A program made the position numbers and the translations under genes. Of a DNA stretch of 43,311 bases, positions 13,894-27,269 are shown piece by piece. The notes under the pieces are model-generated. The model was not told the DNA's origin. It ran no database searches and saw only the letters and a program-made list of their open reading frames with translations. Source of the stretch: Acidimicrobiia bacterium (GTDB lineage: Bacteria; Actinomycetota; Acidimicrobiia; Spongiisociales; ZC4RG35); assembly GCA_046565785.1 (NCBI GenBank), contig JBKHXZ010000200.1, positions 1-43,311 on the forward strand. Direction: 5' to 3'. Within the stretch, counting starts at the first letter, position 1, and each line of letters opens with the position of its first letter.

Positions 13894-14649
13894 ATGGAGA
13901 TACTCGTAACCGGGGCATCAGGGGTGCTCGGGACGGGGGTGACGCGTATCGCCTCCGAGCGTGGGCACACCGTTCGCAGACTGACGCGCCGGCAACGGGG
14001 TGACGGATGGCTGGTGGGTGACGTCGTCAGCGGTGACGGTCTGGAAGAAGCGGCGACCGGCGTCGACGTGATCGTGCACTGTGCGTCCGACCCGCGTCGG
14101 CACAAGCAGACCGACGTGACCGGCACTCGGCGACTGGTAGCGGCGGCCCGCAACGCCGGTGGCGTCCATGTCGTCTTCCCCGGCATCGTCGGTTCCGACG
14201 TCATCCCGCTCGGCTATTACCGCTCGAAGACCGCCGCCGAAGAGATCCTGACCGAATCCCGTCTGCCGGTTTCCATCCAGCGCTACACCCAGTTCCACGA
14301 ACTGCTGTGGATGGCGCTGTCGATGCTGACCAAGTTCCCACTCACCGTCGTCCCCAACGACACCCGATTCCAGGTTCTCGACTCCCGGACCGCCGCCCGA
14401 CATCTGGTCGAGGCAGCCGAACGTGGTCCTGAGGGTCGGCTCCCCGACCTGGGCGGTCCGACCGCCTACGACGCCAAAGACCTCGCCCGGTCGGTCGCCA
14501 CCGCGCTCGGGCGAAAGCGAAAGGTGGTCGGCTTGAACCTGCCGGGTCTCGTCGGTGCCGCCCTACGGGCCGGTGGGAACCTGACCCCGAACCGCGACGA
14601 CACCGGTGCCACCTGGAACGACTTCGTCGCCCACAAGATCGGAACCTGA
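13894..14649 (+). CDS. NAD(P)H-binding atypical SDR / NmrA-like protein
   Basis: N-terminal ILVTGASGVLG Rossmann motif; about 250 aa. Confidence 0.75.
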   Translation: MEILVTGASGVLGTGVTRIASERGHTVRRLTRRQRGDGWLVGDVVSGDGLEEAATGVDVIVHCASDPRRHKQTDVTGTRRLVAAARNAGGVHVVFPGIVGSDVIPLGYYRSKTAAEEILTESRLPVSIQRYTQFHELLWMALSMLTKFPLTVVPNDTRFQVLDSRTAARHLVEAAERGPEGRLPDLGGPTAYDAKDLARSVATALGRKRKVVGLNLPGLVGAALRAGGNLTPNRDDTGATWNDFVAHKIGT

Positions 14650-14651
14650 TC

Positions 14652-14704
14652 CCGGAGGCCGCCGATGGTTCGAACGCCGGCGGCCGTCACTCCGGAGGTT
14701 TTGT
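14652..14704. terminator. GC-rich hairpin followed by GGTTTTG between convergent genes
   Basis: CCGGAGGCCGCCG ... CGGCGGCC GTCA CTCCGG, then AGGTTTTG. It lies between the stop of the SDR gene and the stop of the HisA-like gene. Confidence 0.4.
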
Positions 14705-15708
14705 CAGGCCTGTGCCCGGTCGGCGTGTTCTGCGGCGATCTCGTCGAGGATCTCCTGGGCACGGACCAGATGGCCTCGCACTGCGAATCCGTGCGCAGCG
14801 TCCCGAGGCTGGTTCCCTTCCTTGATTCGCTTCGCCGCCGTCCGGGCGTGCGAGGCGCCCTTCTCCAGTTCGGCGGCCAGCAGCCGGTAGCGCTCGATCT
14901 GGCTCGCCTCCGCCGGGGACGGCTCGGGTTCGACCACCGGTTTGGTAGCGGGTTCGGTCGGCTTGGGAATCGGACCCGCCTCCAGCACTTCCTTCGCCTC
15001 GGCCAGGGTGAATCGGCCGTGGGTCACCTCCCGCCCCACGACGACGCCGCTCAGTCGTCGTCCGTTCTCCTCGATCGAGATGATCTCTCGGAGGTCTTCG
15101 AGATGGCGGACCCCACCAGAAGCGATCACCTGTTCGTCGACGGTACGCAGCGCCGTCGCCAGGATCTTCTTGTCCGGCGGTTCGATCAGCGCGTCCCGCC
15201 CGGCCTCGGCGATCAGGAAGGACACCGCGCCCGCCGAACTCATCTCCAAGAGGACTTCCTCCAGGAACCGGCCCGAGTTCTTCGTCCATCCGCGGGTGGC
15301 GATCTCCTCGTTGGGACGCACGTCCAACGACACGACGATCTTCTCGGGATGGTCCCTGCAGAGATCCCACACCATGTTCTGGTCTTCGATGGCGGCAGTC
15401 CCCATCACGACCCGCCACGCACCGGACTCGATGAGCCGACCCGCCTCGATGTGTGATCGGATACCACCCGCCACCTGCACCGGGCCGTCCACCGCCGCGA
15501 TCAAGCGGTCGATCAGCGGGCGGTTGCGATAGTCCCGGTTGGCGGCGGCATCGAGGTCCACGACATGGATGGCGTCAGCACCCTGCTCACGCCAGTTCCT
15601 CGCCCGTGAGATCGGGTCGTTGTCGAGGGTGATCGCATTGTCCAGATTGCCTCGCGGTAATCGGACAGACCGGCCGTCGAGGATGTTGACCCGGGCGTAG
15701 AGATCCAC
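14704..15708 (-). CDS. HisA/PriA-fold (beta/alpha)8 protein with Pro-rich linker and C-terminal helical domain; atypical paralogue
   Basis: GTG at 15708 is preceded by GGAAAGGA (an alternative GTG lies at 15732). HisA blocks are present: HVVDLDAA, QVAGGIRS, VVSLDV...TRGW, ASGGVRHLEDL. A linker PIPKPTEPATKPVVEPEPSP is followed by about 70 aa of helical sequence. Confidence 0.75.
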   Translation of the reverse strand: MDLYARVNILDGRSVRLPRGNLDNAITLDNDPISRARNWREQGADAIHVVDLDAAANRDYRNRPLIDRLIAAVDGPVQVAGGIRSHIEAGRLIESGAWRVVMGTAAIEDQNMVWDLCRDHPEKIVVSLDVRPNEEIATRGWTKNSGRFLEEVLLEMSSAGAVSFLIAEAGRDALIEPPDKKILATALRTVDEQVIASGGVRHLEDLREIISIEENGRRLSGVVVGREVTHGRFTLAEAKEVLEAGPIPKPTEPATKPVVEPEPSPAEASQIERYRLLAAELEKGASHARTAAKRIKEGNQPRDAAHGFAVRGHLVRAQEILDEIAAEHADRAQA

Positions 15709-15768
15709 TGTGTCCTTTCCGCTGACAGGCACCCGAGCCTACGCGCCAGGCCTCGTTCGCGTCGGACG

Positions 15769-17652
15769 TCACTCGATTCCGAGGAGTTCCTCGGCGGCAT
15801 CGAGGGTCTGTGGATTCTCCAGTACCGCGGCGAAGAGGTCGCCGGATGTCCGCAAACGATCCCACACGTTGTCGATCGTGAAGTCCCCGTTGCGAATCTT
15901 TCCGACCTCTTCCCATCGCAAGGGGAGCGAAATCGGGGCACGGGGGCGCGGACGCACCGAATACACAGAGGCGATGGTCTGACCGAAGGCGTTCCGGTTG
16001 TGATCGACGAAAACCTTGCCGCGTCGTTTCGGAATGTCCCACGCCATCGTCACGTCGTCGGGGTTGGCGGCAGCCAGCAACTCGCCGACCGCCCCCACGA
16101 ACCTGCGCACCCGTTCGTGGGTGTGGACGGGAGCGAGCGGAACGTAGACGTGCATGCCCTTCGATCCCGAGAGCTTGGGCACACCGATCAGCCCGAGCTG
16201 CCCGAGGACCGTGCGGATCATCCCGGCCGTTGTCACCACCTGGTCCCAGCTCGCCCCTTCGGCGGGGTCGAGGTCGAAGATCGCCAGATCGGGATATTCC
16301 AGGGTCCCCACCCGAGAGTGGAACGGGTGGATCTCGATACAGCCCATGTTGGCGAACCACATGAGGGATTGGCGAGAGTCGGCGAGGAGGAACTCGATGT
16401 CCCCGCCCATCGAATCCGAATGCACCGTCCCAGTCGCCATCCACTCCGGTTGGTGCCCAGGGGCCCGCTTTTCGTAGAACGACTGGCCCTCGATGCCGTC
16501 GGGGTATCGAGACATCGACAGAGGCCGACCGTCGAGATGGGGCAGGATCAGGTCGGCCACCGACGCGTAGTACTGGATGAGATCGCCCTTGGTGATTCCG
16601 TCGGGAAAGAGCGGCTTGTCGATGTTGGAAAAAGTGAGAGGGCGGGAGGTTCCCAGCAGCTTCCAACGCTGGCCCAGTTTCTCGACCCGCACCAGGTTGG
16701 GAGCGTTCACCAACCGGGACGAGATCGGCGTGCCCGACGCCGGCGCTCCCGACGCCAGCGCCTGACGCAACTCGTCCCAGATCGCCTGGTGGCTTGCTTC
16801 GTCGCGTGACTCGGAAATCACCACGAGCGACACGTCGGCTTCGAGCGCCGCCTGGATCAGCGGTGTGATCCGCAGCGTTCCTTCCCCGTAGGTGGTGTGC
16901 CGGATCTCGCCGTGTGGGCCGAACAGATTGTCGCTGAACTGGCATTGGAGCGGGGTGACCTTCACCGCCTCGAACGATTCCTGCACGAAGCCGAGCACGG
17001 CGGCGAAAGCCTCAGTGGTGGTGAGCCCACCACCGGTCATGGCGTGGAGATGGGCCCAGTCGACGATCGGCCGCACGAACGGGTATTCGGCGGCGAGAAC
17101 AGCGATGTCTCCCAGCGTCCCGAACCCACGATCGTTGCCTGCGGTCTCCAGACCCAACGACACCCCGAGCCCTGCCACCTTCGAACCGATCCAGTCCAGC
17201 CGTGACCTGATCGAGGCGAACAGCTCCTCGGATGTGAATTCCCCTTTCGCGCCAGGGTGGGCACAGATGATGTCGGCGCCGAGAGCCGCCCCCAGTTTCA
17301 TTGTGTGTTCGATCGCGGCAACGGTCTGCTTCGATCGGTCCTCGTCGGCGACGGTCAGCGACCCGAAGTAGGGGGCGTGTGCCGACAGACGGATTCCCCG
17401 GTCGCGTGCAAGCTCCCCGAACCGGGCACAGTCTTTCTCTTTCCAGTGAAATCCGCCTGTGAAACCGAGCTCGAAGGCACCATGCCCCTGTTCGACCAGC
17501 GAGTCGAGAAACGCCTCGTGGCTCATCCCCTCCGGTGGCATTCCGGAGATCCCGTAGGTGATCACACCTGCGATTGTGCCCGGTGAGCGCCCGACCGATG
17601 CAGAAAGATGCAGAAATCCGCCGTAAACGACGGATCTCATTCTGAGTTCCAT
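15769..17652 (-). CDS. Fusion protein: endonuclease IV-like AP_endonuc_2 TIM barrel (N-terminal) + LigD-type primase-polymerase domain (C-terminal)
   Basis: N-terminal half: SAHAPYF, ICAHPGAK, LGLETAGN, IVDWAHLHA, IRHTTYGEG, VVISES. C-terminal half: FSNIDKPLFP, KGDLIQYY, SMSRYPDG, FYEKRAP, IFDLDP, SGSKGMHVYVPL, VFVDHNRN. The start codon choice (17652 vs 17640) is uncertain. Confidence 0.85.
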   Translation of the reverse strand: MELRMRSVVYGGFLHLSASVGRSPGTIAGVITYGISGMPPEGMSHEAFLDSLVEQGHGAFELGFTGGFHWKEKDCARFGELARDRGIRLSAHAPYFGSLTVADEDRSKQTVAAIEHTMKLGAALGADIICAHPGAKGEFTSEELFASIRSRLDWIGSKVAGLGVSLGLETAGNDRGFGTLGDIAVLAAEYPFVRPIVDWAHLHAMTGGGLTTTEAFAAVLGFVQESFEAVKVTPLQCQFSDNLFGPHGEIRHTTYGEGTLRITPLIQAALEADVSLVVISESRDEASHQAIWDELRQALASGAPASGTPISSRLVNAPNLVRVEKLGQRWKLLGTSRPLTFSNIDKPLFPDGITKGDLIQYYASVADLILPHLDGRPLSMSRYPDGIEGQSFYEKRAPGHQPEWMATGTVHSDSMGGDIEFLLADSRQSLMWFANMGCIEIHPFHSRVGTLEYPDLAIFDLDPAEGASWDQVVTTAGMIRTVLGQLGLIGVPKLSGSKGMHVYVPLAPVHTHERVRRFVGAVGELLAAANPDDVTMAWDIPKRRGKVFVDHNRNAFGQTIASVYSVRPRPRAPISLPLRWEEVGKIRNGDFTIDNVWDRLRTSGDLFAAVLENPQTLDAAEELLGIE

Positions 17653-17702
17653 CCGCCGTCCCGACTACGGGTCGGGTCGGGAGCGGGGTACGTTCCTCGG
17701 CC

Positions 17703-18737
17703 ATGGCCGAAGTACCTGCATCCCCGATCGGTGTCCTCCTGCTCCAGTTGGGCACCCCGGACTCGACCGAGATCCCCGACGTCCGCAAGTACTTGCGCGA
17801 ATTCCTGTCCGACCCGCGGGTGCTCGACATCCCGGCCCCCGCCCGGTGGCTGCTCCTGAACGCGGTCATCCTCCCCTTTCGCCCCAAGCGGTCCGCCGAG
17901 GCGTACGAGAAGGTGTGGACCGACCAGGGGTCACCGCTCATCATTCACACCGAGGAACTCGCCACCAGGCTGCAGGCGGTCCTCGGCGACGGGTACGTGG
18001 TGGCCTACGGCATGCGGTACCAGTCGCCTTCGATCGCTTCGGCGATCGAGCGCCTCGCCCAGGCCGGATGTCGCCAGATCGTCCTCCTCCCTCAATTCCC
18101 GCAGTACGCCTCGGCCAGCGGCGGATCTGCCGTGCAAATGGCCTTGGAGGTGATCGGTTCACGGTGGAACGTGCCGGAGGTGCGAACGGTCGGTTCGTTC
18201 TTCGACCATCCAGGATTTCTCGACGCGGCCGCCGAAATCGCCCGCCCGCTGCTTGCCGAGTTCGCACCCGACCACGTCGTGTTCAGCTACCACGGGCTGC
18301 CGGAGAAGCAGATCAGAAAGAGCGACGTCTCGGGCGACTGGTGTCTGGAGAACTCGTGGTGTTGCGATTCGATGAACGAGAAGAACGCCTTCTGTTACCG
18401 GGCGCAGTGTTTCGCCACCACCCGGGGACTGGTCTCCCGACTCGGGCTCGACGGCGACACCACATCCACCACCTTTCAGTCGCGCCTGGCAGGCCAGAAG
18501 TGGATCGAGCCGTACACCGACAAGATGCTTCCCAAGCTGTTCGACGCCGGAGTACGACGGTTGGCGGTACTCACCCCGTCGTTCACCGCCGACTGCCTGG
18601 AGACGATCGAAGAGATTGGCATCCGGGGGCGCAAGCAGTGGGAAGAGCTGGGCGGTGAGGCGTTCCTGCTGGTCCCGTGCGTCAACGCAGACGACCGTTG
18701 GGTGCACGCCGTAGCGGAGATGGCGCGTGGTGCCTGA
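17703..18737 (+). CDS. hemH: Ferrochelatase
   Basis: Motifs LLLQLGTPDS, MRYQSPSI and LPQFPQYASASGGS. Contains a five-Cys internal segment. Confidence 0.9.
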   Translation: MAEVPASPIGVLLLQLGTPDSTEIPDVRKYLREFLSDPRVLDIPAPARWLLLNAVILPFRPKRSAEAYEKVWTDQGSPLIIHTEELATRLQAVLGDGYVVAYGMRYQSPSIASAIERLAQAGCRQIVLLPQFPQYASASGGSAVQMALEVIGSRWNVPEVRTVGSFFDHPGFLDAAAEIARPLLAEFAPDHVVFSYHGLPEKQIRKSDVSGDWCLENSWCCDSMNEKNAFCYRAQCFATTRGLVSRLGLDGDTTSTTFQSRLAGQKWIEPYTDKMLPKLFDAGVRRLAVLTPSFTADCLETIEEIGIRGRKQWEELGGEAFLLVPCVNADDRWVHAVAEMARGA

Positions 18738-18738
18738 T

Positions 18739-19122
18739 TCAGGCTCGACCCAGGATCCGATCGACCTGGAACCGGATCACGACTCGCTTGGGATTCTCGC
18801 TGACCGGTCGGTACCTGCGTTCGAACAGGCGCTCGCCGAGGGCGACGCCGGCCGGGTCACGAACCACCTCCGCGTCCCCTTCGAGCGCGAGCCATCGTCG
18901 ACCGTCCACCTGGCAGACCACCGCCCGGCCCCGTTCGGAGACGTTCACCACCTTCTGGGTCCGGTCCGAGGAGATGATCGAAACGGCACCGTCGTCGTAG
19001 GTGAAGGCGATGGCGACGACATGCGGCGTGCCGTCCGCCCGCATCGTGGTCAGCGTTCCCAGGTGCCGTTCGGCGAGGAACTCCAGCTCGGACGCAGAGA
19101 GCTCGTCGGGAGTGCGGGCCAT
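18739..19122 (-). CDS. Pyridoxamine 5'-phosphate oxidase-like split-barrel protein, probably F420- or flavin-dependent
   Basis: ELEFLAERHLGTLTTMRADGTPHVVAIAF... is typical of the actinobacterial PPOX-class family. Start taken at MARTPDE (19122); an alternative ATG lies at 19161. Confidence 0.7.
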   Translation of the reverse strand: MARTPDELSASELEFLAERHLGTLTTMRADGTPHVVAIAFTYDDGAVSIISSDRTQKVVNVSERGRAVVCQVDGRRWLALEGDAEVVRDPAGVALGERLFERRYRPVSENPKRVVIRFQVDRILGRA

Positions 19123-20026
19123 GACGGCGGAGGCTATCGACGTGACTGAAAGAACCGACATCGAGGACTTCTATCGGGATGTTCAGGCTCGCTTCTGTGC
19201 CGGAATCGAGTCGGTGGACGGCACCGGCCGGTTCGTTTCCGACGTCTGGGAGCGCCCGGGAGGTGGAGGCGGCGACACGCGGATCCTCGCCGGGGGTTCG
19301 CACATCGAAAAGGCGGCGGTGAACTTCTCCGCCGTAGAAGGGGAGACCCCGGCCAAGCTGTCCGAACGTATGGCGGCGATGGGCGAACGCTTCTACGCCA
19401 CTGGCGTGTCCATCATCGTCCACCCCGCCAACCCCTACGCCCCCACCTTCCACGCCAACGTCCGCTACTTCGAGACCGACGACGGCCGCGCCTGGTTCGG
19501 CGGGGGTGCCGACCTCACCCCCTACTACTTGTTCGGAGACGACGCCCGCCATTTCCATCGGATTCTGCAGAGCGTCTGTGACCGCCATCCGGTAGCCGAT
19601 CACCCGGGTTGGAAGCGTGCCTGTGACGAGTATTTCCACCTGCCTCATCGGGGAGAGGCTCGCGGGGTCGGCGGCCTCTTCTTCGACCATCTCACCGAGC
19701 ATCTGTCCGAGGTGTGGGCGTTTCAACAGGATTTGGCCAACCATCTGCTCGACGCCTACGTCCCGGTCCTCGAGCGACGCATCGGCATGCCATTCGGGGA
19801 CCGGGAACGGGACTGGCATCGGATCCGTCGAGGACGCTATGTCGAGTTCAACCTGGTCTGGGACCGAGGCACCAAGTTCGGACTGGAAACCGGTGGGCGC
19901 ACCGAGTCGATACTCGGGTCGCTTCCCCCGCATGCCTCGTGGGTGTACGAAAACGAACCGGAGCCCGACTCGCCCGAGGCCGAACTGCTGGCGTTCGTTC
20001 GAGGGGCGCCCCGTGATTGGGTCTGA
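19121..20026 (+). CDS. hemF: Oxygen-dependent coproporphyrinogen III oxidase
   Basis: Start MTAEAID at 19121. HemF blocks: DVWERPGGGGGDTRIL, IEKAAVNFS, SIIVHPANPYAPTFHANVRYFE, WFGGGADLTPYY, RGRYVEFNLVWDRGTKFGL. Confidence 0.85.
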   Translation: MTAEAIDVTERTDIEDFYRDVQARFCAGIESVDGTGRFVSDVWERPGGGGGDTRILAGGSHIEKAAVNFSAVEGETPAKLSERMAAMGERFYATGVSIIVHPANPYAPTFHANVRYFETDDGRAWFGGGADLTPYYLFGDDARHFHRILQSVCDRHPVADHPGWKRACDEYFHLPHRGEARGVGGLFFDHLTEHLSEVWAFQQDLANHLLDAYVPVLERRIGMPFGDRERDWHRIRRGRYVEFNLVWDRGTKFGLETGGRTESILGSLPPHASWVYENEPEPDSPEAELLAFVRGAPRDWV

Positions 20027-20081
20027 TCCGGGGTTGTCGACTCGCCGTTGGAACCGTCTCCGGTAGGTTTTCCCGCGCTTC

Positions 20082-21242
20082 ATGAGCATTTCGACCCACA
20101 TCACCTCCGCCTCGTTCGCCTACCCGGCGGTCGACAGCGCCATCCGGGCGCGTCTGGCGCAGGCTCTTGGATCGGTGGAACCCGACGGAGGAACCTTCTT
20201 GCTCAACACCTGCCTCCGTACCGAGGTGGTGGTGGCGGGAGACGGCGAGACCCTCCGGCGCCGTCTGGAGGCGATGTTCGGCCACGACGTCGACCTGGGA
20301 ATCGCCAAGATCCGATCGGATCTGGATGCGGTGGAACACCTCTACCGGGTGGCCGCCGGGCTGGAGTCGCCGGTGCGGGGCGAACAAGAGATCCTCACCC
20401 AGTTTCGCCAGACCGTGTCGGACGCGAACGAGCGGGGAGCGATCCGGGGGATCTTCGCCAAGCTGCTGGAAACGGCGGTGGCGACGGGGCGGCTGGCCCG
20501 GGAGTCGATCCCCGAATCCCCCCACGACTCGATGGCTGCGGTCGCCGCCCAAGCGGTGGGCAATGTCGACCGTGTGGCGGTCCTCGGCTCTGGTGTGATG
20601 GCCACTTCAGTGACACGGGCGCTGCTCGGACTTCCCGCTCCTCCTGCCGTGACGGTGGTGGCACGAACTCCGGAGCGAGTGACCAACGCCGACGTCACCG
20701 TCTGGCCGTTCGATCGTGCACTGCAGGTGCTGGAGGATTTCCCGGCTGTGATCTCGGCCACCTCCGCCAAGCGACGACTGGTCGATGCCAGCGAGCTCGA
20801 GCAGGCGATCCGCAACCGGATTGCTCCTCTCACCGTGGTCGACATGGCGATGCCTCCGGATTTCTCAGTCGAGTCCTCCCCGCAGGTGACCTACCTCGAC
20901 ATCGACGACCTCGCCCGGATGGCGGAACGCCGCCCACGCAAAGACGACGCCGACACGGTCGTACGTTCCGCCGCCGTCGACGCCTACCAGGCCTACGTCG
21001 ATCATCATCAGGTCGGACCGGTCATCGGTGGCCTGACCCGCCACGCCGACGCTGTCGTCGATCAAATGGTGGAGCGGTTCGGGAACAAGCTCTCCGACCC
21101 GAGGGACGTTGCGGTGCTCCGACAGACCGCACATACCGTGGCCCGTACCCTCATCGCCGGCCCCATCGCCTACCTGCGGGATCCCGAAAGGGCACCGGAT
21201 GCGGTGGACGTGGTGGCCGACGCTTTCGGTGTCGATGAATGA
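20082..21242 (+). CDS. hemA: Glutamyl-tRNA reductase
   Basis: Catalytic-Cys block LNTCLRTEVV, plus HLYRVAAGLESPVRGEQEILTQ. Confidence 0.9.
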   Translation: MSISTHITSASFAYPAVDSAIRARLAQALGSVEPDGGTFLLNTCLRTEVVVAGDGETLRRRLEAMFGHDVDLGIAKIRSDLDAVEHLYRVAAGLESPVRGEQEILTQFRQTVSDANERGAIRGIFAKLLETAVATGRLARESIPESPHDSMAAVAAQAVGNVDRVAVLGSGVMATSVTRALLGLPAPPAVTVVARTPERVTNADVTVWPFDRALQVLEDFPAVISATSAKRRLVDASELEQAIRNRIAPLTVVDMAMPPDFSVESSPQVTYLDIDDLARMAERRPRKDDADTVVRSAAVDAYQAYVDHHQVGPVIGGLTRHADAVVDQMVERFGNKLSDPRDVAVLRQTAHTVARTLIAGPIAYLRDPERAPDAVDVVADAFGVDE

Positions 21243-22096
21243 CTCGCCTCCGGCTCGCCACGCGGGCGTCGACGCTCGCCCTCGCCCAGACCCGATGGGT
21301 CGCTGAACGCCTGCAATCCGCCCATCCGGAGCTCGAAGTCGAGCTGGTGGAGATCACGACCACCGGAGACACCGACCGGACTTCACCGGTGACCACCCTG
21401 AGCGAAGTCGGAGCATTCGTACGGGCAGTGCAGATCGCAGTCCTCGACGGGGTGGCGGACGCCGCCGTGCATTCGTGCAAGGACCTGCCCGTCGCCGGTC
21501 CTGTCGAACTCGGCTGCGTTTTCCCAGAGCGTGAAGCGCCGTGGGATGTGTTGTGTGGCGCCGTCCTGGACGAACTCCCACCCGGTGCCCGGGTCGGCAC
21601 CGGCAGCCCGCGTCGCACCGCCCAGCTTGCCGTTCTCCGCCCCGACCTGGCGATCGACGGCATCCGCGGCAATGTCGAAACCCGGCTGGGGAAGGTGGCC
21701 TCGGGCGAGTACGACGCGGTGGTGCTGGCCGAGGCCGGTCTGCGTCGCATCGGACTCGACCAACACATACGAACTCGATTCTCCGTGACCGACATGGTGC
21801 CCGCCCCGGCACAGGGTGCGCTCGCCGTCGAAGCTCCCCACAACTCGGAAGCCATGATGCTCCTCGCGGCCCTCGACCATCCCGCTACCCGCGTTGCTGT
21901 CGAGGCCGAGCGATCACTGTTGGCCCGCACCGGCGCCGGCTGTCGCGCAGCCCTCGGCGCGTTGGCAGTCGTTACCGAGGACGGGGTGGAGATGCACGGG
22001 TTCGTCGAAGACGAAGACGGATGGCGCCGTGCCGCGATCCAGCACACCGACGGTCACGCTGCCAGTCTTGCCCTGCAGAAGGAGCTCTCGCTGTGA
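21239..22096 (+). CDS. hemC: Hydroxymethylbilane synthase (porphobilinogen deaminase)
   Basis: ATGA overlap with hemA. Motifs RLATRASTLALAQT and RGNVETRL; cofactor-Cys block GAGCRAALGA. Confidence 0.9.
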   Translation: MTRLRLATRASTLALAQTRWVAERLQSAHPELEVELVEITTTGDTDRTSPVTTLSEVGAFVRAVQIAVLDGVADAAVHSCKDLPVAGPVELGCVFPEREAPWDVLCGAVLDELPPGARVGTGSPRRTAQLAVLRPDLAIDGIRGNVETRLGKVASGEYDAVVLAEAGLRRIGLDQHIRTRFSVTDMVPAPAQGALAVEAPHNSEAMMLLAALDHPATRVAVEAERSLLARTGAGCRAALGALAVVTEDGVEMHGFVEDEDGWRRAAIQHTDGHAASLALQKELSL

Positions 22097-22767
22097 CCAG
22101 GGTTGCCGTGACCACCACCGCCGACAACGCCCCCCGAGTGGGCGACGCCCTGGTGGCGGTGGGACTCGTGCCGGTGATGCTGCCTTGCATCTCGATCAGC
22201 CCGTCACCTCCGGCGATTCTCGACGAGCTGCGGCAACGGGCGGCATCCGCAGACCTCATCCTGGTCACGTCTGCTCGGGCGGTGCGGGTGACCTGGCCCG
22301 ACCGTGACATGCCGCCGGTGCCGGTGGCGGCGGTGGGCGAAGCCACCGCCGACGCGGTGCGGGACGCCCGTGGGCTGATCGAGGTCGTGGGTTCGGGTGG
22401 TGCCGCGGAATTGATCTCCGAACTCGACGTCGAGGGGCGCAGCATCGTGTTCCCTCACGCTCGGGCGGCGGATCCGGCCACCGCCGTCGAACTCGAAAAG
22501 CGCGGCGCGGCCATGTTCGCTGCCGCCGCCTACGACACCATTCCCATCGCTCCCGGCGACGAAAAGGTCGATGCCGCCGTCTTCGGGTCGCCGTCGGCGG
22601 TGGATGGGTGGCTGCTACGGCGCCACCTCGACGGGATGACCATCGCCGCCATGGGCGACACGACCGCCTCGGCGTTGCGTGTTCGTGGGGTGGCCGACCC
22701 GGTGGTTCCCGACCGTCCCGACCTCGTCACCCTGGCACACGCTTTGGCAGAAAGGATCGACGCATGA
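22093..22767 (+). CDS. hemD: Uroporphyrinogen-III synthase
   Basis: GTG start overlapping the hemC stop (GTGA). About 224 aa of low-conservation HemD-like sequence ([26 protein letters not shown]). Position between hemC and hemB. Confidence 0.75.
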
Positions 22768-23744
22768 GTGAGTTCCCGACCGTGCGATCTCGACGGCTGC
22801 GCCGCTCTCCTGCGCTCCGCCGTCAGGTCGCCGAGACCAGACTTCACCCGGCCGGCTTCGTCCTGCCCCTGTTCGCCGTCCCCGGTCGCGACGTCGACAG
22901 GCCGATCTCGTCGATGCCCGGACATTCCCAACTGTCCGTCGATCGGCTCCTGGCAGTGGTGAAGGAAGCCGCGGCGGCCGGCGTTGGTGGAGTGATCCTG
23001 TTCGGGATTCCCGAATCAAAAGACGAGACCGGGTCCCAGGCGTGGAACCCGGGCGGTCCGGTGCCGGAAGCGATCCGTGCGATCAAAGACGAAGTTCCCG
23101 AGATGGTCGTATGGGCGGACGTCTGTCTGTGCGAGTACACCTCCCACGGCCATTGCGGCGTGCTGAGGGGCGAGGCGGTGGACAACGACGCCACCCTGCC
23201 GCTGCTCAGTCAGGCCGCCGTCGCGTACGCGGATGCCGGAGCCGATGTGGTGGCCCCGTCGGACATGATGGACGGTCGGGTGACGGCGATTCGCTCGGCA
23301 CTCGATTCGGCCGGACATGCCGAACTGGCGATCTGTTCGTATTCCGCAAAGTACGCCAGCGCCTACTACGGCCCGTTCCGTGAAGCTGCCGAATCGACTC
23401 CTGCCTTCGGGGACCGTCGCACCCACCAGATGGACCCTTCCAACATCCGCGAGGCGATCGCCGAGGTCCATCTCGACTTGGCCGAAGGAGCCGACATGGT
23501 GATGGTCAAGCCCGCCGGGCCGTACCTGGACGTGATTTCCGCGGTCCGTCAGTCGGTCGACGTTCCCGTGGCCGCATATCAGGTGTCCGGCGAGTTCTCG
23601 ATGATCGAGGCGGCAGCCCGCAACGATTGGATCGACGGTGAACGGGTCATGCTCGAATCCCTCACCGGTATCGCCCGAGCCGGAGCAGGAATCATCCTGA
23701 CGTACTTCGCCACCCGCGCCGCCCGCGCGTTGGAGTCGGCATGA
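22764..23744 (+). CDS. hemB: Porphobilinogen synthase (delta-aminolevulinate dehydratase), Zn-type
   Basis: ATGA overlap with hemD. Motif [10 protein letters not shown], Cys-rich Zn motif [14 protein letters not shown], Schiff-base lysine block MVMVKPA. Confidence 0.9.
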
Positions 23745-25015
23745 GCGAGTCTGCCGAACTGTTCCGGCGGGCCTCCGACGTGATGCCCGGCGGGGTGAAC
23801 TCGCCGGTCAGGGCGTTCCGTGCCGTCGGCGGGCACCCTCCCTTCATCACCTCCGGACAGGGGCCTCACCTCTACACCGAAGACGGCCGGCAGCTCATCG
23901 ACTTCATCGCCTCCTGGGGGGCGTTGCTGTTCGGCCACGCCGACCCGACGATCGTCGAAGCGGTGACCGCAGCAGCCCGCAAGGGCACTTCTTTCGGCGT
24001 GTCCACCCGGTTGGAGGTGGAACTGGCCGAGCTGATCACCGCCCTGATCCCTTCCATCGAAGTCGTACGGATGGTCAACTCCGGGACCGAAGCCACCGCT
24101 TCGGCCATCCGCCTCGCCAGGGCCGCCACCGGTAAGTCGGGCATCGTGAAATTCGAGGGCTGCTACCACGGCCATGCCGACCCCTTCTTGGTCAAGGCCG
24201 GGTCGGGACTAGCCACATTGGGTGAACCCGACAGCCCCGGAGTACCCGCCGCCACCGTCACCGATACCCGTTCGGCTCGCTTCAACGATCTCGGTTCGGT
24301 CGAGCATGCATTCGCAGCCGGGGACATCGCCGCGGTCATCGTCGAACCGGTCGCCGGGAACATGGGTGTGGTGGCACCGGTCGACGGGTTCCTCCCCGGC
24401 CTGCGCGAGCTGTGCGACCGTCACGGGGCGCTGCTGATCTTCGACGAGGTGATGACCGGGTTCCGGGTGGCGCGAGGCGGTGCGCAGGAACGTTACGGGG
24501 TCACTCCGGACCTGACCTGTCTCGGCAAGGTGGTGGCGGGTGGTACGCCGGCGGCGGTCTACGGCGGACGTTCGGACCTGATGCGACAGATCGCCCCGGA
24601 CGGACCCGTTTATCAGGCGGGCACACTGGCGGGAAACCCGTTGGCGACCGCAGCCGGACTCGCCTGCCTGCAACAGATCCACGACGACCCGACGATCTAC
24701 GACCGTCTCGAAACCCTCGGCAGCAGGCTCGAAGCTGCACTCATCACCGCGCTCGCCGACCACGGGGTCGATGGATGCGTCCAACGGGTGGGCGCCATGC
24801 TCACCGTGTTCTTCGGTCCGGACCAGGTGACATCTTGGGACGACGCAGCCACCGTCGATCGGGCCCGTTTCGCCTCCTTCTTCCGGGCGGCATATGCCGG
24901 GGGAGTGCTGTTGCCGCCTTCACAGTTCGAAGCGTTGTTCATGATGACGGCACATGAACCGGTGCTGGACGCCGTCATCGACACTTTGAGCCAGGCGATC
25001 GGAGCGGCGGCGTGA
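23741..25015 (+). CDS. hemL: Glutamate-1-semialdehyde 2,1-aminomutase
   Basis: ATGA overlap. Motifs [21 protein letters not shown] and PLP-lysine block LGKVVAGG. Confidence 0.9.
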
Positions 25016-26001
25016 CCAAGCCCCTGGTGGAGGCCCTCCACCGGCGGCCAGTCGATCGAACCCCCGTGTGGATCATGCGCCAGGCGGGCCGGTATCTGCC
25101 CGAGTACCGCGATCTGCGAGCCTCCTATTCGTTCCAAGAGGCGGTCTCCAACCCGGATGTGGCAGCCGAGATCACCTTGCAGCCGATCCGCCGGTTCGGA
25201 ATGGACGGTGCGGTGATCTTCGCCGACATCATGACCCCGTTGGAGGCGATGGGGGTCGACTTGACGTTCGATCCCGGTCCGCGGCTACGGCCCCACACCC
25301 TGGCCGAGATCGCCGACCTTCCCGAATTGGACGCCGATCGGGCGGGGTTCGTCGCCGAGACGATCCGGCGGGTCAAGAGGAACGTACCGGAGGAGGTGGC
25401 GGTCATCGGATTCGCCGGCGCTCCCACCACCCTGCTCGCCTATCTCGTCGAAGGCGGCGGTTCGAAAGAGTTCATGGAGATGCGTTCGGCAGTACGGGCG
25501 GACCCCGCCGCGGCCGCCGCCGCCCTCGAGGGTTTGGCGACGGCGATGAACCGCTACCTGATGCTCCAGATCGATGCGGGGGTGGATGCCGTGCAACTGT
25601 TCGACACTTGGGCGGGCGTGTTCGACCGCGAGACCTACCGCACCGTCTGTCTTCCCGCCGCCCGGTCTGCCCTGGTTGGTCTCGGCGCCCCCACCATCTA
25701 CTTCGCGCCCGGCGGGGTCCACACTCTCGACCTGCAACCCGAGGTGGGCGCGACGGGGTACGGGGTGGACTGGCGTGTTCCATTGGACGAAGCATGGAAC
25801 ATGCTGGGAGACGTTGCCATCCAAGGCAACGTAGACCCGGCGGTGTTACGGACCGACCCCGACACGATCCGGGCCGCAGTCGATGACGTGCTGACCCGAG
25901 CCGGCGGTCGCCCCGGTCACATCATGAACCTGGGACATGGCATCGACCGCCACACACCGACCGAACATGTCGCCGCTTTCGTCGAGGCGGTACGACGATG
26001 A
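25012..26001 (+). CDS. hemE: Uroporphyrinogen decarboxylase
   Basis: GTGA overlap. Signature PVWIMRQAGRYLPEY. Confidence 0.9.
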   Translation: MTKPLVEALHRRPVDRTPVWIMRQAGRYLPEYRDLRASYSFQEAVSNPDVAAEITLQPIRRFGMDGAVIFADIMTPLEAMGVDLTFDPGPRLRPHTLAEIADLPELDADRAGFVAETIRRVKRNVPEEVAVIGFAGAPTTLLAYLVEGGGSKEFMEMRSAVRADPAAAAAALEGLATAMNRYLMLQIDAGVDAVQLFDTWAGVFDRETYRTVCLPAARSALVGLGAPTIYFAPGGVHTLDLQPEVGATGYGVDWRVPLDEAWNMLGDVAIQGNVDPAVLRTDPDTIRAAVDDVLTRAGGRPGHIMNLGHGIDRHTPTEHVAAFVEAVRR

Positions 26002-27269
26002 GAGTGGTGGTCGTCGGAGGCGGATGGGCCGGGCTTCTCACCGCAGTCAATCTTCGGGCGCGTGGCGTCGAAGACCTCGTCGTCCTCGAACGTTCCGCAT
26101 GGCCCGGAGGGGTGGCTCGGTCGACGGTCGTCGACGGGTACACCCTGGAACCGGCCGCCGGCAGCTTCCTTCTCCCCCAGCCCGGGCTGACGCCGTTCGT
26201 CACCGGGGCGGTGGTTCCGACCGCGACGGACCAACGACACGTGTGGGACGGGAAGCGACTCGTGACCGTCCCTTCGGGTCCGAAGGCCATGCTGGCGCCG
26301 CTCGCTTCGACGCCGGCCAAGCTTCGGGCGGTGATGGAAGTCGCCTTCCCGGAACGGTTTTCGGAAGCCGACGAGTCGCTCGACCGGTTCCTTCGTCGAC
26401 GGTTCGGCGACGAGGTGGGCCGCACCGCCGCCTGGCTGGCCGCCTCCGGGGTGTTCGCAGGCGACCCGGCCCTGCTGTCGGCAGGAGCGTCCTTTCCCCA
26501 ACTGACCGCATTGGTCGAAACCCACGGGTCGGTAATCCGTGGCGTCTTCGGCTCTCGACGGCCGCGGAGAAAGAGCTTCGTTCCTGCCACCACCATGTCG
26601 GACCTCGCCGAAATGGTTGCCCGACCGTTGGGAGATCGTTTCCGGCCGGGGATGACGGTCGACGCCGTACGTCGGGACGCCAACCAGTGGGTGGTCGACG
26701 GCAGTGAACGCTTCACCGCCGAACATGTGGTGGTCGCCATCGACCCAGCGATCGCGGCGAGGCTGGTCGGCGGAGAACTCGGTGCAGCCCTGCGTGGTCC
26801 TGTGCATGCCCCGGTCGTCGTGGTCGGGCTGGGTGGACGGTGGATGGAGCTCCCGGAGGGTTTCGGTGTCCTCACCGGACCTGACGCCGGAACCGCCACC
26901 CGAGGGGTGCTGCTCGAGTCGTCGTATGCCCCTCACCGGGCACCGCACGGGGCCGGCTTGATGAAGGTGATCGCCGGAGGTGCCGTGCGGCCGGACATCG
27001 TCGAACTCGACGACGATGACGTGGTCGATTCGGTCGGCAACGAGGTCGCACGGATCCTGGGCCACGACCTGGACGTGTCGTTCGTGCGGGTGGTTCGTCA
27101 CCGCCCGGGAATCCCGCAGTACGTGTTGGGTCATCGGGAGTGGATGGCGGGGATCGATGCTGCCACCCCGAACTCGCTCCACCTGACCGGATGGGGATAC
27201 CGTGGGGTCGGCCTCAGCCATCTGGCTGCCGACGCTGCCCGTATCGCCGACCGCATCGCTGCTGCATGA
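25998..27269 (+). CDS. hemY: FAD-dependent protoporphyrinogen/coproporphyrinogen oxidase (HemY family)
   Basis: ATGA overlap. N-terminal VVVVGGGWAGL dinucleotide fold; about 420 aa with HemY-like length and C-terminal GWGYRGVGL block. Confidence 0.8.
   Translation: MRVVVVGGGWAGLLTAVNLRARGVEDLVVLERSAWPGGVARSTVVDGYTLEPAAGSFLLPQPGLTPFVTGAVVPTATDQRHVWDGKRLVTVPSGPKAMLAPLASTPAKLRAVMEVAFPERFSEADESLDRFLRRRFGDEVGRTAAWLAASGVFAGDPALLSAGASFPQLTALVETHGSVIRGVFGSRRPRRKSFVPATTMSDLAEMVARPLGDRFRPGMTVDAVRRDANQWVVDGSERFTAEHVVVAIDPAIAARLVGGELGAALRGPVHAPVVVVGLGGRWMELPEGFGVLTGPDAGTATRGVLLESSYAPHRAPHGAGLMKVIAGGAVRPDIVELDDDDVVDSVGNEVARILGHDLDVSFVRVVRHRPGIPQYVLGHREWMAGIDAATPNSLHLTGWGYRGVGLSHLAADAARIADRIAAA

What the first reader, a model, noticed from the sequence alone, without database searches (positions are those of the whole stretch)
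15769..17652. Single ORF fusing an endonuclease-IV-like TIM barrel to a LigD-type primase-polymerase
Seen in the sequence: residues about 30-300 follow the Nfo/AP_endonuc_2 pattern (SAHAPYF, ICAHPGAK, LGLETAGN, IVDWAHLHA, IRHTTYGEG, VVISES). Two positions that are metal ligands in E. coli Nfo look substituted (CQFSDN instead of HLND, and no Asp before RH). Residues about 330-627 are an unmistakable NHEJ polymerase/PrimPol domain (SMSRYPDG, FYEKRAP, IFDLDP, SGSKGMHVYVPL, VFVDHNRN). No Ku, ATP-dependent ligase or LigD phosphoesterase domain is nearby. Established knowledge: the LigD phosphoesterase module heals 3' ends. Endonuclease IV is an AP endonuclease with 3'-phosphatase/diesterase activity. 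As I recall, mycobacterial Prim-PolC/LigC has been reported to act in base excision repair together with BER nucleases. Inference: this fusion would hard-wire AP-site incision or 3'-end cleaning to short-gap filling, a Rosetta-stone type link. It is the strongest candidate in this window for an undescribed repair module.
Basis: partly seen in the sequence, partly recalled or inferred. Interest (0 to 1): 0.7.

Follow-up and report, generated by a model that had tools for sequence, protein, structure and literature searches.

The report
Endonuclease-IV-like barrel fused to repair polymerase
One gene of an uncultured Acidimicrobiia bacterium joins an endonuclease-IV-like DNA-end-cleaning domain to a LigD-type repair polymerase; the fusion is real and conserved in many related species but undescribed in the literature searched, and it probably does two steps of single-strand-break or base-excision repair in one protein.

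Summary
The ORF at 15769..17652(-) encodes an AP_endonuc_2 TIM barrel (6.5e-25) followed by a LigD Prim-Pol domain (2.7e-89). The likely true start is the GTG at 17565, giving 598 aa.

It is not an assembly artefact. 79 of 80 GTDB species loci, all uncultured Acidimicrobiia MAGs, carry both domains in one ORF. A rare family has the opposite domain order.

The barrel sides with endonuclease IV rather than sugar isomerases, although Foldseek E-values do not separate the two. Seven of nine Nfo metal ligands are identical, D229 is Glu with a one-residue offset, and the Tyr72/Leu73 wedge is kept. H216 is Gln, conserved within this clade.

The polymerase keeps its catalytic Asp residues and its 5'-phosphate pocket, but lacks Prim-PolC Loop 3. 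Both domains are under purifying selection. AlphaFold2 predicts one compact unit (pTM 0.92).

No Ku, ATP-dependent ligase or phosphoesterase lies within 10 kb in any of the 94 sources searched.

A divergent HisA-like gene follows the fusion in 67 of 80 species. Its catalytic Asp is replaced by Asn in 72 of 72 copies. Its role is unexplained.

Best reading: 3'-end cleaning or AP incision coupled to short-gap filling. This function is inferred, not shown.

The parts
15769..17565 (-). Coding sequence of the fusion protein. The probable start is the GTG at 17565, giving 598 aa plus the stop at 15769-15771. The longest possible ORF extends to the ATG at 17652.
   Evidence: ORF list. The start is inferred from the alignment of 19 homologues and the DNA read. 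The same architecture is found in 237 protein clusters at 90% identity.
16753..17565 (-). Endonuclease-IV-like TIM barrel (ORF residues 30-300). Candidate metal ligands are H92, H132, E169, D198, H201, Q236/Q238, E249, H252 and E281. Y95/F96 correspond to the Nfo Tyr72/Leu73 wedge.
   Evidence: Pfam PF01261. Profile search against PDB. hhalign to E. coli Nfo. AF2 model with pLDDT 94.2 and Foldseek TM 0.78-0.82 to EndoIV structures. Invariant columns in 106 sequences.
16639..16752 (-). Inter-domain segment (ORF residues 301-338). Its sequence is poorly conserved, but it is modelled with high confidence and contains short strands.
   Evidence: omega 0.28-0.98, against about 0.1 for the two domains. 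No block with pLDDT below 84 in the full-length model.
15772..16638 (-). LigD-type primase-polymerase domain (ORF residues 339-627). Catalytic residues D460, D462 and D550; the SGSKGMH motif; 5'-phosphate pocket N343, K346 and K355. There is no Prim-PolC Loop 3.
   Evidence: PF21686 2.7e-89 and TIGR02778 above its cut-off. PDB 5dmu 2.2e-52, 5op0 1.8e-51, 2iru 6.5e-43. Foldseek TMt 0.91 and 0.90. Pocket residues mapped through the alignment and PMC5663958.
14704..15732 (-). Conserved downstream partner gene. It encodes a divergent HisA/PriA-like TIM barrel (342 aa) with Asn in place of the first catalytic Asp and a C-terminal tail. The tail is helical in this window and is a glyoxalase/VOC domain in most orthologues. 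The gene begins 36 bp after the fusion stop codon, on the same strand.
   Evidence: PF00977 6.2e-50; TIGR00007 173 bits, below its cut-off of 229. Same-strand downstream neighbour in 67 of 80 GTDB loci, against 3-13 of 80 for other window neighbours. Asn in 72 of 72 copies. Asn aligned to the catalytic Asp of 4x2r. VOC domain PF00903.

Best explanation
The gene encodes a two-domain DNA repair enzyme that does not depend on a fused or neighbouring ligase or Ku.

The N-terminal domain is a multi-metal TIM barrel of the endonuclease IV lineage. It is inferred to incise at abasic sites and/or remove 3'-blocking groups (3'-phosphate, 3'-phosphoglycolate, 3'-unsaturated aldehyde), leaving a 3'-OH. 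The C-terminal domain is a LigD-type primase-polymerase. It is inferred to anchor on the 5'-phosphate of the same nick or short gap through its N343/K346/K355 pocket, and to fill the gap using the D460/D462/D550 centre, with ribonucleotides or deoxyribonucleotides. An unlinked ligase would seal the nick.

Functionally, the barrel takes the place of the 3'-phosphoesterase module of LigD. This hard-wires the EndoIV-plus-Prim-Pol cooperation that has been shown in trans for mycobacterial Prim-PolC/LigC.

The clade-specific His-to-Gln change at the Nfo H216 position, and Glu at the D229 position, suggest a changed metal preference rather than loss of activity.

Shown here: the domain identities, the reality and conservation of the fusion, intact active-site residues, purifying selection, and a predicted compact architecture. 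Inferred: both catalytic activities, the substrates, and the coupling between the two steps.
For: Domain calls: Pfam, NCBIfam and PDB.

The fusion is real and widespread. More than 120 full-length homologues at 62-85% identity were found. 549 GTDB species genomes carry a relative of the barrel, and 79 of the best 80 loci have both domains in one ORF.

Both domain orders exist: P0162 and P0303-P0305 are Prim-Pol followed by the barrel.

The barrel profile hits MJ1311 at 3.9e-13, then EndoIV structures at 2e-9 to 3e-6, then APN1 and UVDE. The best sugar enzyme, an L-ribulose 3-epimerase, reaches only 0.006. The best TM-scores are to EndoIV: 4hno 0.82, 2x7v 0.80, E. coli Nfo 0.79.

Ligand mapping onto E. 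coli Nfo matches residues that are invariant in 106 sequences. The motif HAPYF, corresponding to H69/Y72/L73, is present in 89 of 90 fusion ORFs.

omega is 0.09-0.13 for the barrel and 0.09-0.11 for the polymerase against the closest relatives.

The full-length AF2 model has pLDDT 94.4 and pTM 0.92, with no disordered linker.

The polymerase pocket residues align with Prim-PolC N20/K23/K35.

Published support: EndoIV was the best 3'-end processing enzyme for Prim-PolC/LigC excision repair in vitro, and LigC co-purified with tagged EndoIV in vivo (PMC5663958). B. subtilis ligD and nfo mutations are non-additive for spore resistance (PMC4770248).
Against: There is no biochemical evidence for either activity.

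The barrel scores far below the curated nfo cut-off (26.7 against 129.65 bits).

Foldseek E-values rank sugar epimerases level with EndoIV.

The closest solved relative, MJ1311, was deposited as a 'D-tagatose 3-epimerase-like protein' with no assigned function.

One metal ligand is Gln in 84 of 89 clade members.

No ligase to complete repair lies within 10 kb in any source.

AP incision would leave a 5'-dRP. The only known LigD dRP lyase activity sits in the ligase domain, which this protein lacks (PMC4770248).

The conserved neighbour looks like a small-molecule enzyme (HisA-like plus VOC), and this model does not explain it.
Confidence: 0.6

Rival explanations
1. The protein is a split-LigD component of Ku-dependent non-homologous end joining. 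It would supply the polymerase and end-cleaning functions, while Ku and a stand-alone ATP-dependent ligase are encoded elsewhere in the genome. The EndoIV-like domain would replace the phosphoesterase at double-strand break ends.
For: The closest non-fused relatives of the polymerase domain are N-terminal Pol domains of Pol-PE-Lig LigD proteins, such as P0165 at 50% identity. The polymerase lacks Loop 3, the feature that biases Prim-PolC towards gaps, and it superposes best on NHEJ polymerases (5dmu, 2iru, 2fao; TMt 0.90-0.91). LigD domains are known to occur as separate genes in many species (PMC5663958).
Against: No Ku, ligase or phosphoesterase was found within 10 kb in any of the 94 sources searched, although the separately encoded NHEJ genes are usually operon-linked. 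The neighbourhoods are housekeeping and variable. Caveat: the Ku query sequence was written from memory, and whole genomes could not be searched.
Confidence: 0.15
2. The barrel is not a nuclease. It could be a catalytically altered DNA- or lesion-binding module that targets the polymerase. It could also be a sugar or sugar-phosphate enzyme of the xylose-isomerase-like superfamily whose link to the polymerase is not DNA end processing.
For: The H216-equivalent ligand is Gln and the D229 equivalent is shifted. The nfo model score is far below its cut-off. The top Foldseek E-values include psicose and tagatose epimerases and MJ1311. Stand-alone relatives at 34-39% identity sit beside CcmE/CcmF and an adenylate cyclase, not beside repair genes. 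The conserved partner is a HisA-like plus VOC protein.
Against: The five extra ligands that, from my own knowledge of the D-tagatose and D-psicose 3-epimerase structures, distinguish trinuclear EndoIV from single-metal sugar epimerases are all present and invariant: H92, H132, H201, E249 and H252. The one substituted ligand is one that both classes share. The Tyr/hydrophobic wedge is conserved. Gln is itself conserved, and omega is about 0.1, so the site is under selection. The barrel is fused to a DNA polymerase in both domain orders.
Confidence: 0.12
3. The fusion and the HisA-like(+VOC) gene form a two-gene system with a function outside classical BER and NHEJ. One possibility is processing of an unusual sugar or sugar-phosphate lesion or remnant. 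Another is nucleotide-linked metabolism that uses the Prim-Pol as a nucleotidyltransferase.
For: The HisA-like gene is the same-strand downstream neighbour in 67 of 80 species, while other window neighbours are kept in only 3-13 of 80. Asn replaces the catalytic Asp in 72 of 72 copies, and the protein scores below the HisA equivalog cut-off. About 53 of 72 copies carry a VOC domain.
Against: The pairing is absent from the reverse-order fusions, from L012 and L013, and from the clade at about 40% identity, where the downstream gene is a bona fide trpD. The fusion therefore functions without it. No chemistry linking HisA-like enzymes to DNA is established. The adjacency could reflect shared regulation only.
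Confidence: 0.1
4. The single ORF is an assembly or frameshift artefact that joins two separate genes.
For: None found.
Against: The same fused ORF occurs in 90 of 94 sources examined (the window plus 89 loci), from many different samples and assemblers, including complete MAG chromosomes. The full-length model is a confident single unit.
Confidence: 0.01

Closest known systems
Bacterial LigD (Pol-PE-Lig multidomain NHEJ enzyme)
   Same: It has the same LigD-type Prim-Pol domain, with the same catalytic triad and 5'-phosphate pocket. The design logic is also the same: a 3'-end-healing module is fused to the polymerase.
   Different: There is no ATP-dependent ligase domain and no phosphoesterase domain. 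The healing module is an unrelated fold, an EndoIV-like TIM barrel. There is no Ku linkage. The database names 'NHEJ DNA ligase' and 'LigD' are misnomers.
Mycobacterial Prim-PolC / LigC excision-repair complex working with EndoIV (PMC5663958)
   Same: It involves the same pair of activities: EndoIV-type 3'-end processing followed by Prim-Pol gap filling on 5'-phosphorylated gaps.
   Different: In mycobacteria the two are separate proteins bridged by LigC; here they are one polypeptide. This polymerase lacks the Prim-PolC-specific helix alpha8 and Loop 3 and has no linked LigC.
Endonuclease IV (Nfo/End/APN1) family
   Same: It has the TIM-barrel fold, seven identical metal ligands, the Tyr/hydrophobic wedge after the first His, and its best TM-scores to this family.
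   Different: H216 is replaced by Gln and D229 by Glu with a one-residue offset. Identity is about 15-19%. The score is far below the nfo cut-off. It belongs to a distinct subfamily whose members carry HxHFSD (PLQxQFSDN in this clade) and GEIRH motifs; the fused members and their closest relatives also carry HAPYF, which the stand-alone clade replaces with HAPIA.
MJ1311 (PDB 3wqo) and archaeal EndoIV-like proteins such as P. furiosus PF0258/PfuAPE
   Same: MJ1311 is the closest solved sequence relative (3.9e-13). It shares the HxH motif at the H216 region and the ExxH/DxH motif. PMC2770678 lists MJ1311 among archaeal EndoIV homologues, a group in which PF0258 is a verified AP endonuclease with 3'-phosphatase activity.
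   Different: MJ1311 itself has no demonstrated activity and was deposited as 'D-tagatose 3-epimerase-like'. It is stand-alone. The TM-score to it (0.72) is lower than to bacterial EndoIV.

Membership tests
Endonuclease IV (Nfo) family | Xylose-isomerase-like TIM barrel fold (PF01261) | tested here: met
   Pfam 6.5e-25. AF2 pLDDT 94.2. TM 0.78-0.82 to EndoIV structures.
Endonuclease IV (Nfo) family | All nine trinuclear-site ligands (H69, H109, E145, D179, H182, H216, D229, H231, E261 in E. coli numbering) | tested here: not met
   Seven are identical: H92, H132, E169, D198, H201, H252 and E281. H216 is Gln. D229 is Glu249 with a one-residue insertion. His is retained at the H216 position in sister clades.
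Endonuclease IV (Nfo) family | DNA-wedge residues Tyr72/Leu73 after the first His | tested here: met
   Y95/F96 align to Y72/L73. S[VIAL]HAPYF is present in 89 of 90 fusion ORFs.
Endonuclease IV (Nfo) family | Score above the curated nfo model cut-off (TIGR00587) | tested here: not met
   26.7 bits against a cut-off of 129.65.
Endonuclease IV (Nfo) family | AP endonuclease and 3'-repair diesterase activity | not testable with these tools
   This needs enzyme assays.
LigD-type primase-polymerase (PF21686 / TIGR02778) | Model scores above the curated cut-offs | tested here: met
   PF21686 299.5 bits against 27.4. TIGR02778 239.1 against 214.7.
LigD-type primase-polymerase (PF21686 / TIGR02778) | Catalytic DxD...D triad and SGxxGxH motif | tested here: met
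   D460, D462, D550, S495, G496 and G499 are invariant in 106 sequences; H501 is invariant in the 20-sequence alignment.
LigD-type primase-polymerase (PF21686 / TIGR02778) | 5'-phosphate pocket (N/K/K) | tested here: met
   N343, K346 and K355 align with Prim-PolC N20, K23 and K35 (alignment; residues named in PMC5663958).
LigD-type primase-polymerase (PF21686 / TIGR02778) | Fold | tested here: met
   TMt 0.91 to 5dmu and 0.90 to 2fao and 2iru.
Prim-PolC (LigC-associated gap-filling Prim-Pol) | Conserved C-terminal extension (helix alpha8 plus Loop 3, aa 294-336) | tested here: not met
   The alignment to 5op0 ends at chain residue 293, and the query ends 10 residues later. TMt to Prim-PolC is lower, at 0.80-0.85. 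The feature is defined in PMC5663958.
Prim-PolC (LigC-associated gap-filling Prim-Pol) | Operon link to an ATP-dependent ligase C | tested here: not met
   No ligase-domain hit within 10 kb in any of 94 sources.
LigD proper (the name given by NCBI and JGI) | ATP-dependent ligase domain | tested here: not met
   TIGR02776 scores 245.6, below its cut-off of 373.2, and only the Pol region 336-609 matches. There are no ligase Pfam hits.
LigD proper (the name given by NCBI and JGI) | Genomic association with Ku | tested here: inconclusive
   No Ku hit within 10 kb of any locus. However, the Ku query was written from memory, and whole genomes were not searchable.
Sugar isomerase/epimerase branch of PF01261 (D-tagatose/D-psicose 3-epimerase, UlaE, xylose isomerase) | Closest sequence and structure relatives are sugar enzymes, with a single-metal E-D-H-E site and no extra His ligands | tested here: not met
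   The best sugar enzyme in the profile search has E 0.006, against 2e-9 for EndoIV. TM is 0.63-0.75, against 0.78-0.82. The extra ligands H92, H132, H201, E249 and H252 are invariant. Foldseek E-values alone are not discriminating.

The most novel reading that the evidence does not exclude
The fusion and its conserved HisA-like(Asn)+VOC neighbour form a previously unknown excision-repair pathway in Acidimicrobiia that needs no linked Ku or ligase. In it, an enzyme derived from a phosphoribosyl isomerase would process a sugar-phosphate remnant, such as a 5'-dRP or an oxidised abasic residue left after incision. That would supply the step that the ligase domain provides in LigD.
Probability: 0.1. 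Interest if true: 0.85.

Novelty: new variant of a known kind. Interest (0 to 1): 0.62.

Why it matters
Whether bacterial LigD-type primase-polymerases work mainly in double-strand break joining or also in excision repair is still debated. The evidence for excision repair so far rests on pull-downs and in vitro reconstitution in mycobacteria, and on genetics in Bacillus spores. A natural fusion of an EndoIV-like end-processing domain to such a polymerase is independent comparative evidence that the two activities act on the same intermediate. The fusion is kept under purifying selection in at least 79 species, occurs in both domain orders, and has no ligase or Ku nearby.

It also offers a compact single-protein system for studying hand-off between end cleaning and gap filling. 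It provides a naturally varied trinuclear site (His to Gln) for studying metal use in the EndoIV family. Finally, it corrects a widespread database misnomer, 'NHEJ DNA ligase/LigD', for proteins that have no ligase domain.

Tried and rejected
- Context of stand-alone relatives of the barrel (P0134, P0150). They sit beside CcmE/CcmF and an adenylate cyclase and have no repair link, so they give no functional clue.
- Origin of the reverse-order fusions. Domain identities to fused and unfused relatives are equal (0.40-0.53), so an independent fusion cannot be told apart from a permutation.
- The idea that the downstream Glycos_transf_3 gene in the clade at about 40% identity is a DNA-binding TrpD2/YbiB-type protein. 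Rejected: it scores 399 bits on trpD TIGR01245 against a cut-off of 199.
- Promoter and terminator scan of 14400-17900. Nothing was found, so co-transcription with the HisA-like gene is neither supported nor excluded.
- PADLOC defence models. No hits.
- Foldseek E-value ranking as a discriminator between nuclease and epimerase. It was not informative, so TM-scores and sequence profiles were used instead.
- Looking up the window's own protein in the contig index. It is not on record.
- Literature searches for any description of the fusion, using LigD or Prim-Pol with endonuclease IV, TIM barrel, AP_endonuc_2, xylose isomerase and Acidimicrobiia NHEJ. They returned only the two background papers.
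- Genome-wide presence of Ku, a ligase, canonical nfo/xth or a second hisA. This could not be tested because only 10-kb flanks are retrievable.
Full report
**1. The observation**

The minus-strand ORF 15769..17652 (627 aa) is present, and all the quoted motifs are in it. Pfam assigns residues 52-297 to AP_endonuc_2 (6.5e-25) and residues 354-607 to LigD_Prim-Pol (2.7e-89). NCBIfam ligD_pol (TIGR02778) passes its cut-off. The full-length LigD models do not pass, and they match only residues 336-625. The nfo model TIGR00587 gives 26.7 bits against a cut-off of 129.65. Homologues are about 600 aa long and begin at 'M..IRFGISxLPP'. In the window this point is a GTG at 17565 (V30), so the product is probably 598 aa.

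**2. The fusion is real and conserved**

- A search of 5.8 billion proteins gave at least 120 full-length homologues at 62-85% identity with the same two Pfam domains. They come from NCBI, ENA, JGI and Logan assemblies, and most carry the names 'non-homologous end-joining DNA ligase' or 'LigD'.
- A scan of GTDB species representatives with a profile of the barrel found 549 genomes with a relative. The best 80 are all uncultured Acidimicrobiia MAGs, though a few carry other bin labels.
- In those 80 loci, 79 have both domains in one ORF. The exception is cut off by a contig end.
- At 50% clustering only a few fusion clusters exist: the main clade, a clade at about 40-43% identity (P0158), and a small family with the opposite order, Prim-Pol followed by the barrel (P0162 and P0303-P0305).
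- Against the closest relatives, dN/dS is 0.09-0.13 for the barrel, 0.09-0.11 for the polymerase, and 0.28-0.57 for the 38-residue connector.

An assembly artefact is excluded.

**3. What the barrel is**

- A profile of the domain (A2) hits MJ1311 (3wqo, 3.9e-13). It then hits endonuclease IV structures from S. aureus, M. tuberculosis, G. kaustophilus, B. anthracis and T. maritima (2e-9 to 3e-6), followed by APN1 and UVDE. The first sugar enzyme appears at 0.006.
- The AF2 model of the domain has pLDDT 94.2. It gives Foldseek E-values that do not separate epimerases from EndoIV. TM-scores, however, are highest for EndoIV (0.78-0.82). They are 0.63-0.75 for sugar enzymes and 0.72 for MJ1311.
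- hhalign to E. coli Nfo and HMMER alignments to EndoIV structures give the following map:

| E. coli Nfo | This protein |
|---|---|
| H69 | H92 |
| Y72/L73 | Y95/F96 |
| H109 | H132 |
| E145 | E169 |
| D179 | D198 |
| H182 | H201 |
| H216 | Q236 (in PLQCQFSDN) |
| D229 | E249, with a one-residue insertion |
| H231 | H252 |
| E261 | E281 |

- Apart from the H216 position, all of these are invariant in 106 fusion proteins.
- The wider subfamily (stand-alone relatives, P0158 and the reverse-order fusions) has His at both positions of the motif, PLHxHFSD. The main Acidimicrobiia clade has Gln at the second position in 84 of 89 members and usually at the first as well.
- The substitution is therefore lineage-specific and conserved. 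It is not a sign of decay.
- From my own knowledge of the D-tagatose and D-psicose 3-epimerase structures, sugar epimerases of this fold use only the E-D-H-E quartet. The extra His, His, His, Glu and His present here are the EndoIV-specific part of the metal site.
- MJ1311 is listed among archaeal EndoIV homologues together with PF0258, a verified AP endonuclease with 3'-phosphatase activity (PMC2770678). MJ1311 itself has no assigned activity.

**4. What the polymerase is**

- Its best solved relatives are the Methanocella NHEJ polymerase (2.2e-52), M. smegmatis Prim-PolC (1.8e-51) and M. tuberculosis LigD PolDom (6.5e-43).
- The catalytic residues D460, D462 and D550 and the SGxxGxH motif are conserved.
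- N343, K346 and K355 align with the 5'-phosphate pocket residues N20, K23 and K35 of Prim-PolC.
- The protein ends about 10 residues after the common core. It therefore lacks helix alpha8 and Loop 3, which define Prim-PolC. TMt is 0.90-0.91 to NHEJ-type polymerases and 0.80-0.85 to Prim-PolC.
- It works like a gap- or end-filling Prim-Pol, but it is not a Prim-PolC orthologue.

**5. Architecture**

The full-length AF2 model, built from 106 sequences, has pLDDT 94.4 and pTM 0.92 with no low-confidence segment. This predicts a fixed, compact pairing of the two domains. No PDB entry covers both domains.

**6. Genomic context**

- The window is housekeeping DNA. A haem biosynthesis cluster lies divergently upstream. 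The window also holds a molybdopterin oxidoreductase, ABC transporters, a siderophore uptake system and a two-component system. There is no Ku, ligase or phosphoesterase.
- Across 94 sources (the window plus 93 loci), phmmer found no ligase, phosphoesterase or Ku within 10 kb of the fusion. The Ku query was written from memory.
- Neighbourhoods vary, with one exception.
- That exception is a HisA/PriA-like gene (window 14704..15732, 36 bp downstream on the same strand). It follows the fusion in 67 of 80 GTDB loci, whereas other window neighbours are kept in only 3-13 of 80.
- This protein scores below the HisA equivalog cut-off (173 against 229 bits).
- It has Asn at the first catalytic Asp position in 72 of 72 copies.
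- It carries a C-terminal glyoxalase/VOC domain in about 53 copies and a helical tail in about 16, including the window's copy.
- It is absent next to the reverse-order fusions and next to the clade at about 40% identity, where the downstream gene is a genuine trpD.
- Its role is unexplained.

**7. Mechanism**

The best-supported reading is a two-step repair enzyme.

- The barrel cleans 3'-blocked ends or incises AP sites.
- The Prim-Pol, anchored on the 5'-phosphate, fills the short gap.
- An unlinked ligase seals the nick.

This mirrors the reconstituted FPG, EndoIV, Prim-PolC and LigC pathway, in which EndoIV was the best 3'-processing enzyme (PMC5663958). It also fits the non-additive ligD and nfo phenotypes in B. 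subtilis spores (PMC4770248). Gaps with a 3'-block and a 5'-phosphate, such as those left by bifunctional glycosylases or oxidative breaks, fit better than AP incision. Incision would leave a 5'-dRP, and the known LigD dRP lyase resides in the ligase domain, which this protein lacks. These steps are inference.

**8. Comparison and novelty**

The protein follows the modular logic of LigD, but an unrelated fold takes the place of the phosphoesterase and there is no ligase. It is neither a canonical Nfo, nor a Prim-PolC, nor a LigD. Seven full-text searches found no description of the architecture. I rate it a new variant of a known kind, with interest 0.62.

Noticed in passing
window 14704-15732 (-); orthologues in L014-L093: A divergent HisA/PriA-like gene lies immediately downstream of the fusion in 67 of 80 species. 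Asn replaces the first catalytic Asp in 72 of 72 copies. The score is below the HisA cut-off. The C-terminal tail is a VOC/glyoxalase domain in about 53 copies and a helical tail in about 16, including the window's copy. The function is unknown.
   Followed up: partly
P0162, P0303-P0305; loci L007-L010: A small family has the same two domains in the opposite order, Prim-Pol followed by the barrel. His is retained at the Nfo H216 position. These come from other Actinomycetota MAGs and have no HisA-like neighbour.
   Followed up: partly
L007/L008 11932-12735 (-): A second, stand-alone AP_endonuc_2 gene (267 aa) lies convergent to the reverse-order fusion gene, right next to it.
   Followed up: no
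L095 11851-12867; L097 8972-10018: In the fusion clade at about 40% identity, the same-strand downstream gene is a bona fide trpD, followed by a conserved block of a BldD-like_C-domain gene and a DUF3071 gene. Both downstream partners seen, the HisA-like gene and trpD, are enzymes of phosphoribosyl-amine chemistry. This may be coincidence.
   Followed up: partly
window 17703-27269 (+): A near-complete haem biosynthesis cluster lies divergent to the fusion gene: ferrochelatase, coproporphyrinogen oxidase, hemA, hemC, hemD, hemB, hemL, hemE and a protoporphyrinogen-oxidase-like gene. An F420-dependent PPOX-class gene sits on the opposite strand at 18739-19161. The cluster is syntenic only in the closest relatives (6 of 80 species).
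   Followed up: partly
L030, L032, L035, L063, L067 and others: Several MAGs that carry fusion genes 59-62% identical to the window's barrel domain are labelled Acidobacteriota, Gammaproteobacteria or Boseongicola. This suggests mislabelled or contaminated bins.
   Followed up: no
and one search hit tables: Public annotation calls these proteins 'non-homologous end-joining DNA ligase' or 'bifunctional NHEJ protein LigD', although they have no ligase domain. It is a systematic misnomer that comes from the ligD_pol model.
   Followed up: yes
L004 10001-10822; L006 5607-6545: Stand-alone relatives of the barrel (about 272 aa, motifs HAPIA and HIHFSD) sit in a conserved position between CcmE/CcmF cytochrome c maturation genes and a large adenylate-cyclase/AAA/TPR gene. 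JGI names them deoxyribonuclease IV.
   Followed up: no
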